64,000 nucleotides of DNA. It comes from Perna viridis (taxonomy: Eukaryota). Made by a program: the position numbers. Of this stretch, positions 3,001 through 37,800 are shown one piece after another. Each line of letters begins with the position of its first letter. The stretch's first letter is position 1. The stretch spans positions 45,452,862-45,516,861 of the forward strand of contig CM074511.1 of the NCBI GenBank assembly GCA_037379345.1, written 5' to 3'.

Positions 3001-6000
3001 GTATATTGACCGATGCTGCTCTCTTTTATGTTTCGTTAGTTCGTTAGTTCAGTGCACTCAACGTTTATGTACCGATGTCCTTTATAACGTACTGAAATGG
3101 GGTTAACGTACAGTACAGGTTGGGAGAATTTGGTTAAAAACCGTAGTATAAAGCAGAGAATATATGTGTTTTATTCTGCAATTGACACAAATATTTCTTT
3201 CATTATGACATGCAAGTTAAATTCAACAACTTGAAGTTAAAATTCTCCACAGAATTATTTAATAAGCGACAATTTTATTGTTACCATTTTTTGACAATTG
3301 ATATCGACAAGCCAATGACATTCCGTAGCTCCGCCCTTTCTTAACTTAGTATATAACTACCGATTGTAACATGTTGTGCCATATCCTTCACACTACGTCG
3401 ACGAGAACACGTGGAAATACTTATTAAACTTTATTAGTTGCAAATTTGGATTAAGTGTGATTTAAGTATCCAGTTGTCGTAAAATATGACTTTCACGGAA
3501 GATATTGCTGTTCTGCTTGATGCTCAACGGTAAGTCTTTTTTATTATTCTTTTTATTAATTTATACTATTTCGAATATATTTCTTTTCAAATCTCATTGA
3601 CGACCTTTGGTCTTTGTTGTAGAGTATAAAACAAAGAAACTGAACAGCTATAGTTCATCGATCAAAATGAATTTGTACAGTTGGCATTACTTTTTATAAC
3701 ATTTTTGTAAAAATTCCTGTGAAATATAGAACTTATGTTTATATAATGCAAGCTGTTCGATTACAGCATATGGAAATTTGTAAAATAAATGATTGGTATT
3801 TTTGTATTGTATATATAGTATGGACATTTGTCTATTTTTCAGAAGCGTCAATAACGTTGGTTTTGCTCTGAAGGAGCTGCTTCAGAGAGCTGACAAGTCA
3901 GACAAGGTGGTTGTTGGTGTCATGGAATGTGTACAAATACTTCAAAGCAACCCAGATGAAGTCAATCTTTGTATCCTTACAGAAACTGGTGACGTCACAG
4001 CACAGATACACCACAAACTGGTGGAAGCTTTCTGTTGGGAGAACGATATCGAGGTCATTAAGGTAATTTGTTATTGTCTGCACATCTATGTACTGAATGA
4101 CTTAAGACTCTTATAACTAAGTTATTCAGTGCATTTAATTTAAATATCACACTTGTTTTTATGAACATGCAAAAAGTAGCTTACTTTTGAGACAAACTTT
4201 TGACTTGACTGCCTTTTATAGTGGGTTTCTTTGTATGTATGTTTGGTGTTGATTTTTTTAGTTCTATAATGTAATTATTTACTTTTCAATTTCAGGTCGA
4301 AAAGAATGCAAAACTGGAGAAGGTCTTGTCTGGGAATGAAAATGTTGGTGACATTGGATGTGTGTTGATACAGAATGCTGAGACAGACAACTTTACAAAC
4401 GAGTTCATGGAAAACTATTATTCCATGATAGCAGGCGTACAGTCTCCTATTATTGACCTTCCAGAGTGACATAATATCACTAGAAAACTATTGATCTTTC
4501 CAGGTAATTGCAAGATACATTAATATTTTAATGCAAGTTATCTATTAAGATAGGTGCACTAAAATGGTATTTAAATAATTAAATAAACAGTAAATTTGAA
4601 TATTAATAGCTCTTGAACTATCTTGCTACTGTTATACACATAAAGTAGTCATGATTTAACCATAGAGGTTTTTGCACAATATTTACCATATGCATATTTC
4701 TGTTTACAGGGTACCCAAACCTGGAACAAAAGCTCATGATGAAATGATGGCTTGATCATTTTAAAAAAGACAACATTGGATTGTCACCCTGCCAATGGAA
4801 GCTATGGATATCAAAGACTAAAAAAGCCTTCCGTTGGCTTCAGTCAAATTCGACAAAGACACAAAGACATTTACACAGTATCAAAACCCCAAAGGATACA
4901 GCATACAAAGTATCTTGTGTGAACATTTTAGGAGACATTAAGTGATAGTGTGGGATCATAAAATTATTGGATGAGTGGTACCATATTATATAATCTGTTG
5001 TGCAAGCAGTAATCATCATTTGACATTAAGATATAAGCGTAGTTGCAGTGTTTTCCCGTATTTTATTATTGACATCATCTTGTAGGATGTAACTGATTAC
5101 CATGAGACAAAATGATTTCAATTTGTGTGTGCCTACAGACATGTTTCAACTCTCAGTATATGTTCATATCATGTTTTGATAGAGTGCAATAAAGGTATCA
5201 ACATTTATGGAGTTGTGACTTTAATACATCATAGCATATAATTTACTTATCATAGCACATTATAAACTACATCACAGTACACTATGTGTAGAGTGATTCA
5301 ATGTTGGTAAATCGGTTTAAACTTTTTTTTTCAATTCACTCTCCTGATAGAATATTAGATTGGTTTTAAATAATTAGTTATGGCAAGGTAAATTAGGTCA
5401 GAATCCATAAAGTTCTCTTTTTTCTGTTTGTTTACTGTCACTCCGAAACAATATCCGATATCCGGGAAATCTGCATCCGTCATGGGACAGTTAACGGTAA
5501 ACAAGAAAACAAATAACTTAAAGACAAAAACTATTGTCTCTATAAGGAAAATGTTGCTGCATGTTTCTATCGTTCTATAAACAATGCTAATATGGAAGCA
5601 CACTTTTACTGAAAATCTGAATTTTACCATAAAGAGTGGAGAAATAGTTTAAATCAAGAATAGGCTGAAGGAGAATCAGTTTCTCCCTCGGAATCTGCAA
5701 ATGCAAACTGGCAGGAATTTTCTCACTGACCGATGGTTATAGAAGTCGTGTATTTTTAATCGCTGGTTTAAAATGACAGAAAACAATATCTTAAACCGAA
5801 ACGCAATGTGCATGCACGCACGTTGATATTAAGGGCATTTAATTCCTTGAAATGCGAACATTCTTAACATATTTATAAAAGATTTGCGATCTATATTGGG
5901 TAATACTTCGATAACGCTTTCCAGATAGCAGCAACCATAACCAGAAATCATTTGACATTGACATTAACGGAAATATCATTGCCCCTAATCAAAGTTACAA

Positions 6001-34800: not shown

Positions 34801-37800
34801 TGCCGATTATATTGGGAAAGGTATAAATTGACAGATGGCGCGTGCCATTGTGTATTCCGTTGTCTCACCTGTCGTATGAAACTTATTGTTTAGCGGTTAT
34901 GTTCTGAAAGAAACAGCTGCCACATAACAAGGATGCCATGGTAACGGTCGACCACGGAGCCAATACACAGAACAAAGAACTCCCAAAGATCTAGAGCATT
35001 GATGCCAAGTAGAACTGTTCTAAGTTTTTTTATGCATTACTCCGAAAAGATATACTTTCGAAGAACCAAATCACTTTTTAAAATGTTCTCGGACATGAAA
35101 GTTGATTGTCGATTTGATCTTTAATGTGTGATTTTTTCATTTTTTAAATTTTGAAACAAATTTTGGAACGTGACCTCCACTACCTGATTCTACCATTGAT
35201 ACCCTCTTCAGAAAAAAATGGAAGGGTGAATATATTGTGGTTATACTACGGTAAGTTACAGTGACTCTGAAGTGACTACCCATGGTAAGTCACAGTGACT
35301 CTGAAGTGACTACCCATGGTAAGCCACAGTGACTGTGAAGTGACCATCCATGGTAAAACAGCGCCGGATTGATTAACCTTCCCAAAAATTATTTCAATTC
35401 TAAGTTCATTTGTTCACTCTGAAAATCTCAAATTATATTTTTCCTGGAAACTTTTCTCAACTCAAAATTTGACCATTCAGATCGCTATGCCTAAACAAAA
35501 AATTATTTGTGATGAAAAAAATATGATTTAATACTCCACGGATGTGGTGAATCTTCGTTAACCGCATCTGTGCTTGAATTGTACCGTTGTTTTATCAACG
35601 GTGCGCTAGCGTTATTTTGCAGCTAACGAGTGTGCTGTAAGGGTTATTTCAGCGTCACTGACTGATATTTAGGGTCTCGTACTGACAGTCGTCATACACC
35701 AGTTCTGTTAAATTATCAGTCATGTACACAATGAATTTCTAATTATTTACTAGCTATACGCGTTTCGGAGTTCCCTTACTAGCTTCCTACTCATGATTTA
35801 TCGTTTCATTGTCTGTGCAATCGGAGATAATTTCCTTTCCTGTTTTGTTTTAATTCTTATGAAAAGCGGTATTTCCATTATTGACTTCAATATTGTTTAT
35901 AACCACCTCCATATCAAATCAACTTGTTGATGGTTAACAGATTAACACTTGCCAGTCGGTTAAAGAGCTTATAAGAGCTCGTGTTGATTTGTTAAAATGT
36001 ATATATGTGCCAACTCTAAATAAAGTTTACTTACTTACATACCTACAGTCCTAAGTTAGTTGTTTTGTTGTAAGAGTAATTAAAGGAACCAGGATTCGAG
36101 TGGTAATCAAAAGCAAATTGGCGATATTTTTTGTGGTTGTTTTTAGCAACCATCAGAAAAGTGCAGAGGGCTTGGTTCATTCATTTTCATTTCTTAATCA
36201 CTAAACAATGAACATACTAATAGAAATGACAACATCGTAAAACATATATTCAACATGTCACTTTTTCTACAGCATTTTTTTTTCTTCTTTTAATCAAGGA
36301 CACCTCCTAGCTTCTCCATGTCATGGGTCAGATCCCCCATATGTACACGACTAGACCCCTGGGACTGCACATGGACCTTGGTAAGACAGCTCCAACAGTA
36401 AACTATATTGTTGAGACAGTCCAACAGTAAGGTGGATAACCAACATAATGTTGGGAATAGCACCAGCTGCTATTCTTTTTTTTAGTTTATTTACTGCTAG
36501 TTGCAGGTAAATTCTGAAAAAAAAGGAAAGAAAGCATTCGTGAATGTCAATGCATATAAATGCATTTTTATTAAGTAAACTTTTATTTTTGGAAGAACAC
36601 TCTGATTAATACTGACATATTTACTGACACTAGATTCTATTTAAGCGACTGTTAAATGACCTTTGACCCATTCCAATTTCTGACACTGACTTCTAAAGCA
36701 ATATATAGTGTGGTCGGACGTAAGTCAAATGCAACAAATTATACTAGAATGTTTTAATGTTTTACTTTTAAATATCCATGGCCATGCACTATTAGAAAGT
36801 TTTAGCTTTGAGTAGTCTGACAATATGCCTGCTAGAGATACTTACTCAGATGAGGAATATACAGATGAATGATTCACTTCAACATCAAACTGGAAATTCA
36901 ATCAAATGCCATCCCCATACTTTATGGAGCTTATCAAACTTTAACAAAGTGTCAATCCTGGTCTTGTTGTCTTTCTTAGGGTTCTGTAAAAGTAAAATTG
37001 TAAATAAAATCAATATAAACAACCACTAGTATTTTGTTTTTATATTTTCACACCTTTCCATAATTCATTTTGGACACATTTCATTTATGAGGTGTATCCA
37101 ATATTTGCACTATTGTAAACACATGTTTGACTTCTATTTTCATTATTTAAAAAGTTGTATAAATAAGGAGCAGTTCATATAACTGTGATTTACCTTTAGA
37201 AACTTACCTTTATCAGGATACAGGTGTAGTCACTTGATCTATCTGGGTATTTGTTTTTATTTTTCTGTATTGAGCCCAGAAATTTCTTGATCTTTTTTGA
37301 ACTGTCAATCTGAAGAATTAAAAAATCATGGATCAGATACAAAACAAAATTTAAAAGATTTGCATAATTACTAGTACTTCAGTTTACAAAAAATATTCTG
37401 CAAAATTAATTTGATATATCTGCTTAAAATATCATGATAGTCATACAGACGAAAGTAGCCTAAAACATATGATGACATGTAGAATAATTTTATTTTAAAG
37501 TTATATTTACCTTCAAAACTTTGATGTCATTTTCCATACAATAGGCCTCGAGCAATGTATGTTCAATATTAATGGTAACATCATGCACAGGTCCATAGTC
37601 GGCTAAAATGCATGCCATTACATTGTCAGCACAACTGAAATAAAAACAATCATGATTAAAATGAATGGAAAATACATGACACCATACATGTTCAAATAAA
37701 GGTATTATCACTGTTTTTAAGTAGAACAGAAATGTAATGGTATTTATTTCTTTATTTGATCTCAGTGAGGTACAAAGTTCATTGTGATAGGCAGATCCAA

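What the first reader, a model, noticed from the sequence alone, without database searches (positions are those of the whole stretch)
4470..36884. All four GADD45 genes keep an intron 31-39 nt after the stop codon
Seen: strong donors 34 nt (GTAATT, 4504), 33 nt (9573), 31 nt (GTAAGA, 24699) and 39 nt (GTAAGT, 36845 minus) after the stop, each with a matching acceptor. Established: 3'UTR introns are uncommon, junctions under ~50-55 nt from the stop escape EJC-dependent NMD, and vertebrate GADD45 genes lack this intron. Inference: the junction is held just below the NMD threshold, so intron retention or alternative sites could tune decay of a known NMD target.
Basis: partly seen in the sequence, partly recalled or inferred. 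Interest (0 to 1): 0.7.

Follow-up and report, generated by a model that had tools for sequence, protein, structure and literature searches.

The report
Stop-proximal 3'UTR intron in mussel-like GADD45 genes
Four neighbouring GADD45 stress genes of a mussel-like bivalve each show the signals of a small intron 31-39 bases after the stop codon, probably an inherited feature in the zone where such introns are normally harmless, not a demonstrated decay switch.

Summary
The window holds four GADD45-family genes, closest to Mytilus proteins. Each has a TGA stop followed after 34, 33, 31 and 39 nt by a GTAA donor, and 206-399 nt later by a pyrimidine-rich CAG acceptor, at the coordinates given.

This is not chance. 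Donor-acceptor pairs this good follow 0.09-5% of 14,913 pseudo-stops.

The stretches behave like introns:
- GC is 25-31%.
- Lengths match the coding introns.
- They are not alignable between paralogues, while their flanks are conserved.
- They are kept in all four genes, although coding introns differ among them.

Splicing itself could not be tested, because no transcript or animal-genome resource was available.

The junctions lie 11-24 nt below the 50-55 nt rule. Stop-proximal 3'UTR introns are the commoner class in vertebrates. Intron retention would remove the 3'UTR exon junction complex (EJC), not place one there.

Best reading: an ancestral, probably constitutive, stop-proximal 3'UTR intron.

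Weak leads remain:
- A CCTGGAA motif 10 nt into the terminal exon of three genes, complementary to the donor.
- Poly(A) hexamers inside three of the introns.
- A second strong donor in gene 3.

This is a new member of a known kind, of modest interest.

The parts
3486..4503 (+). g1 coding part. Exon 1 is 3486-3529 (ATG at 3486), exon 2 is 3843-4062, exon 3 is 4296-4503. The CDS ends with TGA at 4467-4469, followed by 34 nt of 3'UTR.
   Evidence: Sequence read. Exon translations. PF01248 on exon 2, E 1.4e-07. 65-67% identity to Mytilus californianus GADD45 beta/gamma-like proteins.
4504..4709 (+). g1 putative 3'UTR intron, 206 nt. Donor CAG|GTAATT, acceptor TATTTCTGTTTACAG|G.
   Evidence: GC 0.252. 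Identity to the g2 counterpart 0.48, equal to the shuffled control 0.47.
4710..5215 (+). g1 putative terminal 3'UTR exon. CCTGGAA lies at 4720-4726. The 3' end is inferred from AATAAA at 5188.
   Evidence: The 3' end is an inference, not observed.
8570..9572 (+). g2 coding part. Exon 1 is 8570-8613, exon 2 is 8884-9103, exon 3 is 9357-9572. TGA is at 9537-9539, followed by 33 nt of 3'UTR.
   Evidence: PF01248 on exon 2, E 2.1e-07.
9573..9839 (+). g2 putative 3'UTR intron, 267 nt. Donor CAG|GTAATT, acceptor CAATTCTTAATTCAG|G.
   Evidence: GC 0.255.
9840..10315 (+). g2 putative terminal 3'UTR exon. CCTGGAA lies at 9850-9856. The 3' end is inferred from AATAAA at 10290.
23244..24698 (+). g3 coding part. 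Exon 1 is 23244-23287, exon 2 is 23715-23819, exon 3 is 24026-24149, exon 4 is 24488-24698. TGA is at 24665-24667, immediately followed by TAA, then 31 nt of 3'UTR.
24699..25097 (+). g3 putative 3'UTR intron, 399 nt. Donor CAG|GTAAGA, acceptor TTAACTTCATTTCAG|G. An intronic ACCTGGTGA at 24725-24733 is complementary to the donor.
   Evidence: GC 0.278.
25098..25475 (+). g3 putative terminal 3'UTR exon(s). CCTGGAA lies at 25108-25114. Further strong donors lie at 25136 and 25140. AATAAA lies at 25361 and 25448.
36846..38618 (-). g4 coding part. Exon 1 is 38618-38569, exon 2 is 38069-37965, exon 3 is 37634-37511, exon 4 is 37309-37208, exon 5 is 36983-36846. TGA is at 36887-36885, followed by 39 nt of 3'UTR.
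   Evidence: Exon 3 is 90% identical to M. californianus LOC127727113 and 88% to a M. edulis GADD45 gamma-like protein.
36514..36845 (-). g4 putative 3'UTR intron, 332 nt. Donor TGA|GTAAGT, acceptor TTCCTTTTTTTTCAG|A.
   Evidence: The acceptor is the best of the four (1 per 9142 nt). GC 0.313.
36270..36513 (-). g4 putative terminal 3'UTR exon. The 3' end is uncertain: AATAAA at 36491 or ATTAAA at 36294.

Best explanation
The four genes are a tandem cluster of GADD45-family paralogues in a bivalve related to, but not identical with, Mytilus.

[quoted passage not shown] That makes it a stop-codon-proximal 3'UTR intron of 206-399 nt.

The intron was probably present in the ancestor of the cluster. 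Ordinary purifying selection on its splice sites has kept it, while the rest of the 3' region diverged.

Inferred steps:
- The intron is removed constitutively.
- An EJC is laid down about 24 nt upstream of the junction, which is 7-15 nt after the stop.
- In that position the terminating ribosome sweeps the EJC off, so the intron is neutral for EJC-dependent NMD.
- Its position is what survives selection against distal 3'UTR introns. It is not a tuned set-point.
- Side effects of such an architecture would be splicing-dependent enhancement of export or translation, and extension of NMD surveillance to premature stops in the last coding exon.
For: Shown:
- Signals are at the stated coordinates.
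- Donor-acceptor pairs this good follow only 0.09-5.2% of 14,913 pseudo-stops.
- The pattern of conservation is exon-intron-exon. For g1 v g2 the pre-donor UTR is 30 of 34 identical, the 3'UTR intron is 0.48 against a shuffled 0.47, and the first 60 nt after the acceptor are 0.60 against 0.40.
- In register with the acceptor, g1-g3 match at 14/25 and g2-g3 at 15/25. The background fractions are 0.0011 and 0.0005.
- GC of the four stretches is 0.25-0.31, like the coding introns (0.23-0.355) and below the segments after them (0.32-0.41).
- Lengths of 206-399 nt compare with 201-427 nt for the 10 coding introns of the matrix. g4 intron 1, set later, is 499 nt.
- The stretches contain no repeats and no mutual similarity.
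- The intron is kept in all four genes, although g1/g2 lack one coding intron and g4 has an extra one.
- The g4 lineage predates the split from Mytilus. Its exon 3 is 90% identical to a Mytilus protein but about 52% to the g1 counterpart.

From papers:
- EJCs bind about 24 nt upstream of junctions (abstract in the listing).
- Proximal 3'UTR introns outnumber distal ones in three vertebrates, and 36 nt is given as the distance that accommodates both EJC and ribosome (passages).
Against: - No transcript evidence of any kind was available, so splicing is inferred from DNA alone.
- AATAAA or ATTAAA hexamers lie inside three of the four stretches, at +109/+113, +128 and +127 nt after the stop. Transcripts could therefore end there unspliced.
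- The donors of g1-g3 can pair with nearby sequence, which might reduce their use.
- g4 shares no sequence with g1-g3 around the sites, so homology of its intron rests on position only.
- A subset of proximal 3'UTR introns is NMD-sensitive in vertebrates, so 'neutral' is not assured, especially for g4 at 39 nt.
- The 50-55 nt rule is untested in molluscs.
Confidence: 0.6

Rival explanations
1. Selection holds the junction just under the NMD threshold, so that intron retention or alternative splice sites can switch the mRNA into or out of EJC-dependent NMD.
For: - GADD45 mRNA is an NMD target in flies and mammals.
- The intron is kept in all four paralogues.
- g3 has strong extra donors at 25136 and 25140, 38-42 nt into the terminal exon. 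Use of the first would put a second junction about 69 nt after the stop.
Against: - The distances are 11-24 nt below the threshold, not just below it.
- The spread is explained by descent plus small indels.
- Retention removes the only 3'UTR junction instead of making one.
- The extra donor is in g3 only.
- Proximal introns are the majority class where counted.
Confidence: 0.08
2. The proximal intron does sensitise the mRNAs to EJC-dependent NMD, as reported for foxo3b, cdkn1ba and phlda2. It would supply the cis-element for the conserved NMD control of GADD45 in this lineage.
For: - In passages of PMC7310861, a subset of proximal 3'UTR-intron genes rises in EJC mutants and upf1 morphants.
- The effect is strongest for introns at least 36 nt from the stop, and g4 is at 39 nt.
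- The validated examples are stress or growth-arrest genes, like GADD45.
Against: - Only 3.5-8% of the detectable proximal-intron genes responded in that study.
- g1-g3 are at 31-34 nt, below the 36-nt figure.
- The set of 24 fly genes that includes Gadd45 has 0 annotated 3'UTR introns (table passage), so NMD of GADD45 does not need one.
Confidence: 0.12
3. The stretches are not, or only partly, spliced. The last coding exon acts as a composite terminal exon. Transcripts read through the donor and are polyadenylated about 130-150 nt after the stop, perhaps in competition with splicing.
For: - Poly(A) hexamers lie at +109/+113 (g1), +128 (g3) and +127 (g4).
- The probability of at least 3 of 4 is 0.0022 for a +100..+135 window chosen after the fact, and 0.072 for +60..+200.
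- The donor regions can be paired locally.
Against: - g2 has no hexamer before +751, and the g1 AATAAA is not conserved in g2.
- Hexamers occur once per 403 nt in this AT-rich DNA.
- This reading does not explain the conserved acceptor and the in-register conservation just after it.
Confidence: 0.15
4. Chance. GTAA donors and T-rich CAG acceptors are frequent in 33% GC DNA, and they happen to follow the four stops.
For: - Donors as good as g4's under the first matrix occur once per 228 nt.
- Acceptors as good as those of g2 and g3 occur once per 477-535 nt.
Against: - Per-gene frequencies for donor-acceptor pairs are 0.0009-0.052.
- Three independent lineages share the arrangement.
- Conservation islands sit at both boundaries.
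Confidence: 0.02

Closest known systems
[quoted passage not shown]
   Same: - The intron lies less than 50 nt after the stop.
- Its position is conserved among homologues.
- The host genes are stress or growth-arrest regulators.
- The EJC would sit within reach of the terminating ribosome.
   Different: - Here the splicing is inferred from DNA only.
- The hosts are invertebrate GADD45 paralogues.
- Conservation is shown among paralogues of one genome, not among species.
- NMD sensitivity is unknown.
Distal 3'UTR-intron NMD targets (ARC, SRSF4 and eif4a2, as named in PMC7310861)
   Same: The exon junction lies downstream of the normal stop codon.
   Different: The defining distance of at least 50-55 nt is not met. 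The distances here are 31-39 nt.
NMD control of Gadd45 mRNA in Drosophila and mammals (PMC3962487, passages; PMC4848089, abstract and a methods passage)
   Same: Same gene family. The regulation acts through the 3'UTR: the fly work cloned the Gadd45 3'UTR for a sensitivity assay.
   Different: - The set of 24 fly genes that includes Gadd45 has 0 annotated 3'UTR introns.
- Vertebrate GADD45 genes have none as far as I recall.
- The known regulation therefore does not depend on such an intron.
Splice-site-occluding or intron-bridging RNA helices (for example the stem at the MAPT exon 10 donor; recalled, not taken from any call)
   Same: The donors of g1-g3 can form 8-9 bp helices with nearby sequence that include the GU.
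   Different: - Statistical support is weak.
- No covariation is available.
- g4 lacks the helix.
- No functional data exist.
Composite terminal exons with intronic polyadenylation (general mechanism, recalled)
   Same: A donor is followed within about 110-130 nt by a poly(A) hexamer in 3 of 4 genes.
   Different: The hexamers are not conserved between g1 and g2. They are common in this AT-rich DNA.

Membership tests
GADD45 protein family | L7Ae/L30e/S12e/Gadd45 domain (Pfam PF01248) | tested here: met
   Exon 2 of g1 and g2 match PF01248 above the curated cut-off (31.6 and 30.9 bits v 22.1). The short single exons of g3 and g4 gave no Pfam hit on their own. P0004, which matches g4 exon 3 at 95%, carries PF01248. 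The joined proteins were not scanned.
GADD45 protein family | Closest named homologues are GADD45 proteins, with colinear ends | tested here: met
   g1 exon 2 is 65-67% identical to M. californianus GADD45 beta-like and gamma-like proteins. g4 exon 3 is 88% identical to a M. edulis GADD45 gamma-like protein. N- and C-termini are colinear. The search with g3 exon 4 found nothing, but tblastn with P0001 covers g3.
Stop-codon-proximal 3'UTR intron | Donor and acceptor in the 3'UTR, with the junction less than 50 nt after the stop | tested here: met
   The distances are 34, 33, 31 and 39 nt. Splice-site scores are within or close to the range of the coding introns.
Stop-codon-proximal 3'UTR intron | The intron is actually removed from the mRNA | not testable with these tools
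   No transcript, read or animal-genome collection was available. The supplement SM6 of PMC4101229 (GADD45 gene structure with RNA-seq coverage in M. galloprovincialis, named) is closed.
Stop-codon-proximal 3'UTR intron | Position conserved among homologues | tested here: met
   The arrangement is present in all four paralogues, which form at least three lineages. Other species could not be examined.
EJC-dependent NMD target by the 50-55 nt rule | Exon junction at least 50-55 nt downstream of the stop | tested here: not met
   The distances are 31-39 nt.
EJC-dependent NMD target by the 50-55 nt rule | mRNA stabilised when UPF1, SMG1 or the EJC is lost | not testable with these tools
   This needs an experiment.
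Alternative-splicing-coupled NMD switch | Conserved alternative splice sites that move a junction beyond 55 nt from the stop | tested here: not met
   One search scanned 900 nt after each stop. Only g3 has strong extra donors in the terminal exon (25136, 25140). Donors inside the introns at +120 (g1), +146 (g2) and +119/+260 (g4) have no conserved position.
Intron hosting a small RNA (snoRNA or miRNA host) | Match to a known RNA family inside the intron | tested here: not met
   Rfam gave 0 matches at gathering score in the whole window. It gave 0 at E<=1 in 4400-5300. In 24600-25500 there was one sub-threshold bacterial sRNA match (24.2 bits v 50), taken as chance. There are no tRNAs. The g2 and g4 introns were covered only by the gathering-score run.

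The most novel reading that the evidence does not exclude
The junctions lie not at the 50-55 nt rule but at the steric limit. The cited zebrafish study puts that limit at about 36 nt, where a terminating ribosome just does, or just does not, displace the EJC. The distances here are 31, 33 and 34 nt in g1-g3 and 39 nt in g4.

In g1-g3 the donor is in addition embedded in an 8-9 bp helix. Its partner is a conserved CCUGGAA 10 nt into the next exon, or an intronic copy.

On this reading, use of the 3'UTR intron is gated by RNA structure. Its EJC then gives bivalve GADD45 mRNAs a graded, splicing-dependent entry into NMD. That would be a lophotrochozoan cis-element for the ancient NMD-GADD45 axis, which flies and vertebrates achieve without an intron.
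Probability: 0.1. Interest if true: 0.7.

Novelty: new member of a known kind. Interest (0 to 1): 0.33.

Why it matters
GADD45 is the one NMD target whose degradation accounts for the lethality of NMD loss in flies (abstract of PMC4848089). How the mRNA is recognised is not settled.

If the bivalve genes really carry a conserved exon junction 31-39 nt after the stop, they offer a natural series of distances around the ribosome/EJC steric limit. That series could be used to test whether proximal 3'UTR introns act in NMD outside vertebrates.

If the intron is simply constitutive and neutral, the finding is ordinary gene-structure annotation. It would still matter for correct 3'UTR models of a much-used mussel stress marker.

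Tried and rejected
1. Junction hairpin from exon pieces. RNAduplex of the whole pre-donor UTR against the first 40 nt of the terminal exon was not exceptional. The fraction of 1,599 tiles pairing at least as well was 0.14, 0.41, 0.36 and 0.81. This was rejected as a supported structure. A narrower test with the 12-nt donor segment gave 0.013, 0.022 and 0.007 for g1-g3 and 0.64 for g4, against 0.098-0.98 for 10 coding donors. I keep that only as a weak lead. Folds of the unspliced regions have z-scores of -1.2, -0.26 and -2.37. Local 81-85 nt folds have z-scores of -1.39, -0.25, -1.47 and +1.04.
2. Small-RNA host intron: no Rfam or tRNA support.
3. Transposon origin of the introns: blastn of the four introns and four terminal segments against the window gave self-hits only for the introns.
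4. AU-rich elements: ATTTA counts in the terminal segments (1-2) equal expectation (0.9-1.8).
5. Stop-codon readthrough: the frame after the TGA is open to the junction only in g1. g2, g3 and g4 have in-frame stops after 7, 0 and 1 codons (read). Rejected.
6. Literature on bivalve GADD45 gene structure or mollusc 3'UTR introns: searches found nothing on structure beyond PMC4101229, whose relevant supplement is closed. One search found 0 papers.
7. The protein search with g3 exon 4 found no hit.
8. A gapped pattern search was badly designed and found nothing.
9. Other species: no animal genome or transcript collection was on hand.

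
Full report
**What the window is.** The 64,000 bases contain no N and are 30-38% GC throughout. I do not take the window for human. The coding pieces are closest to proteins of Mytilus californianus and M. edulis, at 65-90% identity. The source is therefore a bivalve related to, but not the same as, those mussels. Exon-by-exon tblastn finds exactly four GADD45-like genes: g1, g2 and g3 on the plus strand and g4 on the minus strand. Exon 2 of g1 and g2 matches Pfam PF01248, the L7Ae/L30e/S12e/Gadd45 family, above its cut-off.

What that leaves open is said below.

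**Gene models**.
- g1: 3486-3529, 3843-4062, 4296-4503.
- g2: 8570-8613, 8884-9103, 9357-9572.
- g3: 23244-23287, 23715-23819, 24026-24149, 24488-24698.
- g4 (minus): 38618-38569, 38069-37965, 37634-37511, 37309-37208, 36983-36846.

The first intron is in phase 2 in all four genes, and the intron after '...V(I/L)K' is in phase 0. g1 and g2 lack the second intron of g3 and g4, and g4 has one extra coding intron. The encoded C-termini (...IDLPE...SLPD...IEFPV) coincide with the ends of the Mytilus proteins, so the stop codons are the real ones.

**The observation.** All four stops are TGA. After 34, 33, 31 and 39 nt come the donors:
- CAG|GTAATT at 4504 (g1)
- CAG|GTAATT at 9573 (g2)
- CAG|GTAAGA at 24699 (g3)
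- TGA|GTAAGT at 36845, minus strand (g4)

Acceptors with pyrimidine tracts and CAG follow 206, 267, 399 and 332 nt later, ending at 4709, 9839, 25097 and 36514.

**Is it more than chance?** I built donor and acceptor matrices from 10 coding introns of the same genes (g4 intron 1 was not included).
- With exon positions included, donors this good occur once per 1242 nt (g1, g2), 1600 nt (g3) and 228 nt (g4). Acceptors occur once per 2133, 535, 477 and 9142 nt.
- With intronic positions only, I took 14,913 pseudo-stops outside the four loci. A donor at least as good at +20..+50, together with an acceptor at least as good 150-500 nt further on, occurred at fractions 0.0137, 0.0517, 0.0165 and 0.0009.
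- g1 and g2 are recent duplicates. They align from 3824 to 4607 against 8863 to 9668, introns included, so they count once. Three lineages remain, and the joint coincidence is of the order of 1e-7.
- The matrices are small and come from paralogous sites, so the figures are rough. The conclusion is not sensitive to that.

**Do the stretches look like introns?** Four things say yes.
1. Conservation has the exon-intron-exon shape.
   - Between g1 and g2 the 34-nt pre-donor UTR is 30/34 identical.
   - The putative intron is at 0.48, the same as shuffled sequence (0.47) and similar to coding intron 2 (0.55 v 0.52).
   - The 60 nt after the acceptor are at 0.60 against 0.40 (alignments).
   - Between g1/g2 and the much more distant g3 nothing aligns in the 3' region by blastn. 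Yet the 25 nt after the acceptor match in register at 14/25 and 15/25, against background fractions of 0.0011 and 0.0005.
2. Composition. The four stretches have 25-31% GC, the coding introns 23-35.5%, and the segments after the acceptors 32-41%. In that call the bounds of g4 intron 1 were off by a few bases; the true bounds are 38568-38070.
3. Length. 206-399 nt, against 201-427 nt for the 10 coding introns of the matrix. g4 intron 1, set later, is 499 nt.
4. Retention. Coding introns differ among the paralogues, but the 3'UTR intron is in all four.

The g4 lineage is old. Its exon 3 is 90% identical to M. californianus LOC127727113 and 88% to a M. edulis protein, but only about 52% to the equivalent part of g1. 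The split of g4 from g1-g3 therefore predates the split of this species from Mytilus. If the intron is homologous in g4, it does too. That homology rests on position only, because g4 shares no sequence with the others around the sites.

The stretches contain no repeats and no known RNA family.

**What could not be shown.** Splicing itself. No transcript, read or animal-genome collection was available. One paper reconstructs the GADD45 gene of M. galloprovincialis with RNA-seq coverage, but only in its supplement SM6 (passages of PMC4101229), which is closed. That file may bear directly on the claim. I put the probability that these are genuine, mostly spliced introns at about 0.8.

**The interpretation.**
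- In passages of PMC7310861, genes with a 3'UTR intron less than 50 nt from the stop outnumber those with a distal one: 861 v 582 in zebrafish, 1239 v 489 in human and 921 v 649 in mouse. 167 genes keep the proximal position in all three species. A proximal position is therefore the usual one for a tolerated 3'UTR intron.
- The same paper reports that a minority of such genes (3.5-8% of those detectable) rise in EJC mutants or upf1 morphants. Stabilisation on UPF1 knock-down is clearest for introns at least 36 nt from the stop. Its model takes 36 nt as the distance at which EJC and terminating ribosome can coexist.
- With the EJC about 24 nt upstream of a junction (abstract in the listing), the complexes here would sit 7-15 nt after the stop. 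In g1-g3 (31-34 nt) the ribosome should remove them. g4 (39 nt) is borderline.
- The junctions are thus 11-24 nt under the 50-55 nt rule, not just below it.
- Their narrow spread follows from descent. g1 and g2 differ by one 1-nt indel in the stretch.
- Intron retention would leave no junction after the stop, so it cannot create an EJC-dependent substrate. It would only lengthen the 3'UTR by 206-399 nt.
- Conserved alternative sites beyond 55 nt were not found.
- A review (passages of PMC6173133) regards the EJC mode as ancient, being present in plants, fungi and animals. It is therefore plausible in molluscs, but I found no study of it there: 0 papers hold the three terms.
- GADD45 as an NMD target is supported for flies and mammals. 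In the fly study the 24 genes that are both up-regulated and reactivation targets, a set that lists Gadd45, include 0 with an annotated 3'UTR intron (table passage). That vertebrate GADD45 genes lack the intron agrees with my recall but was not checked.

**Best explanation.** An ancestral stop-proximal 3'UTR intron, spliced constitutively. Purifying selection on its splice sites has kept it, and its position makes it neutral for EJC-dependent NMD. Possible by-products are splicing-dependent enhancement of expression and NMD surveillance of premature stops in the last coding exon; both are inferred. Confidence is 0.6.

**Leads that do not fit neatly.**
- (a) CCTGGAA motif. It occurs 9 times in the window on both strands (4.5 expected). 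Three of the nine lie exactly at nt 11-17 of the putative terminal exons of g1, g2 and g3.
- (b) Donor pairing. CCTGGAA is the reverse complement of the exon end plus the donor G (TTCCAG|G).
  - A 12-nt donor segment pairs with its own intron and next exon at -12.9, -14.0 and -14.0 kcal/mol in g1-g3. Only 1.3%, 2.2% and 0.7% of 400 random targets of equal length do as well.
  - g4 (64%) and the 10 coding donors (9.8-98%) show nothing of the kind.
  - In g1 the fold of the unspliced RNA bridges the intron with an 8-bp helix.
  - In g2 and g3 local hairpins cover the donor.
  - Against this, whole-region and local z-scores are unremarkable, and the broader duplex test was negative.
  - Three sequences allow no covariation test.
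  - The hairpin that the same arms would form across the spliced junction was not folded, because that needs a joined sequence.
- (c) Poly(A) hexamers. They lie at +109/+113, +128 and +127 inside the introns of g1, g3 and g4 but not g2. The probability of at least 3 of 4 is 0.0022 for a window chosen after the fact and 0.072 for a wide one. The g1 signal is not conserved in g2. Competition between splicing and intronic polyadenylation is therefore a live rival.
- (d) Second donor in g3. g3 has strong donors 38-42 nt into its terminal exon (25136, 25140). With an acceptor such as 25288, the first would give a second junction about 69 nt after the stop.

**Comparison and novelty.** The feature works like, and at the sequence level qualifies as, a stop-codon-proximal 3'UTR intron. 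That is a described class. It fails the defining distance of the classical 3'UTR-intron NMD targets. I found no paper describing such an intron in GADD45 genes of any animal. Public gene models of mussels may well show it, though. I rate it a new member of a known kind, with interest about 0.33.

The boldest reading that the data allow is a structure-gated intron sitting at the ribosome/EJC steric limit, which would couple bivalve GADD45 to NMD. I give it about 0.1.

Noticed in passing
window 4720-4726, 9850-9856, 25108-25114: CCTGGAA lies at exactly nt 11-17 of the putative terminal exon in g1, g2 and g3. That is 3 of only 9 matches in the window. It is the reverse complement of the exon end plus the donor G. 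Its function is unknown.
   Followed up: partly
window 25136-25145: g3 has two strong donors (CTA|GTAAGT and TAA|GTAAGC) 38-42 nt after the 3'UTR acceptor, and an acceptor-like site at 25288. Together they could form a second 3'UTR intron whose junction would lie about 69 nt after the stop. g1, g2 and g4 have nothing comparable.
   Followed up: partly
window 4578-4587, 24795-24800, 36758-36753: Poly(A) hexamers lie 109-128 nt after the stop, inside the putative introns of g1, g3 and g4. g2 has none.
   Followed up: partly
window 4467-4469, 9537-9539, 24665-24670, 36887-36885: All four genes stop with TGA, in a 33% GC genome. g3 has a tandem TGATAA. g1 and g2 have TGA followed by C.
   Followed up: no
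window 3843-4062 and 8884-9103 v 23715-24149 and 38069-37511: Coding introns differ among the paralogues. g1 and g2 lack the phase-2 intron that splits the corresponding region in g3 and g4. g4 has an extra phase-0 intron (37207-36984) in what is the last coding exon of the others.
   Followed up: partly
window 3395-3415 and 8445-8536: g1 and g2 share an upstream ACGTCGA...AACACGTGGA motif containing an E-box-like CACGTG, about 70-110 nt before the ATG. In g2 it lies in a 39-nt tandem duplication. CCAAT boxes lie upstream of g1 (about 3311) and g4 (about 38783).
   Followed up: partly
window 42652-46126 (minus strand): A retroelement with a GIY-YIG domain (PF01541, E 9.2e-05) and a weak reverse-transcriptase match (PF00078, E 0.0029, below cut-off). 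It looks Penelope-like and is flanked by three 254-nt tandem repeats at 42652-43404. Similar peptide fragments occur at 824-1042, 27104-27851 and 39173-39907 (seen in the ORF list).
   Followed up: partly
window 49987-53646 (plus strand): Exons of a pancreatic-lipase-like gene (PF00151 in three pieces, best E 3.5e-21). An 11-copy 44-nt tandem repeat at 50908-51395 lies between the pieces.
   Followed up: partly
window 62633-63865 (plus strand): A 410-codon open frame rich in K, P, S and T. It includes a 21-nt tandem repeat at 63064-63154 and has no Pfam match.
   Followed up: partly
window 4710-4739, 9840-9887, 25098-25136: Read in phase 0 from the '...VIK' donor, as if the last coding exon were skipped, the terminal exons would encode short tails sharing T/A-W-K/N: GTQTWNKSS*, ETQTWKYTSHLTERT* and VSKAWKPILVTF*. 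I worked this out by eye. It is too short to tell from chance.
   Followed up: no
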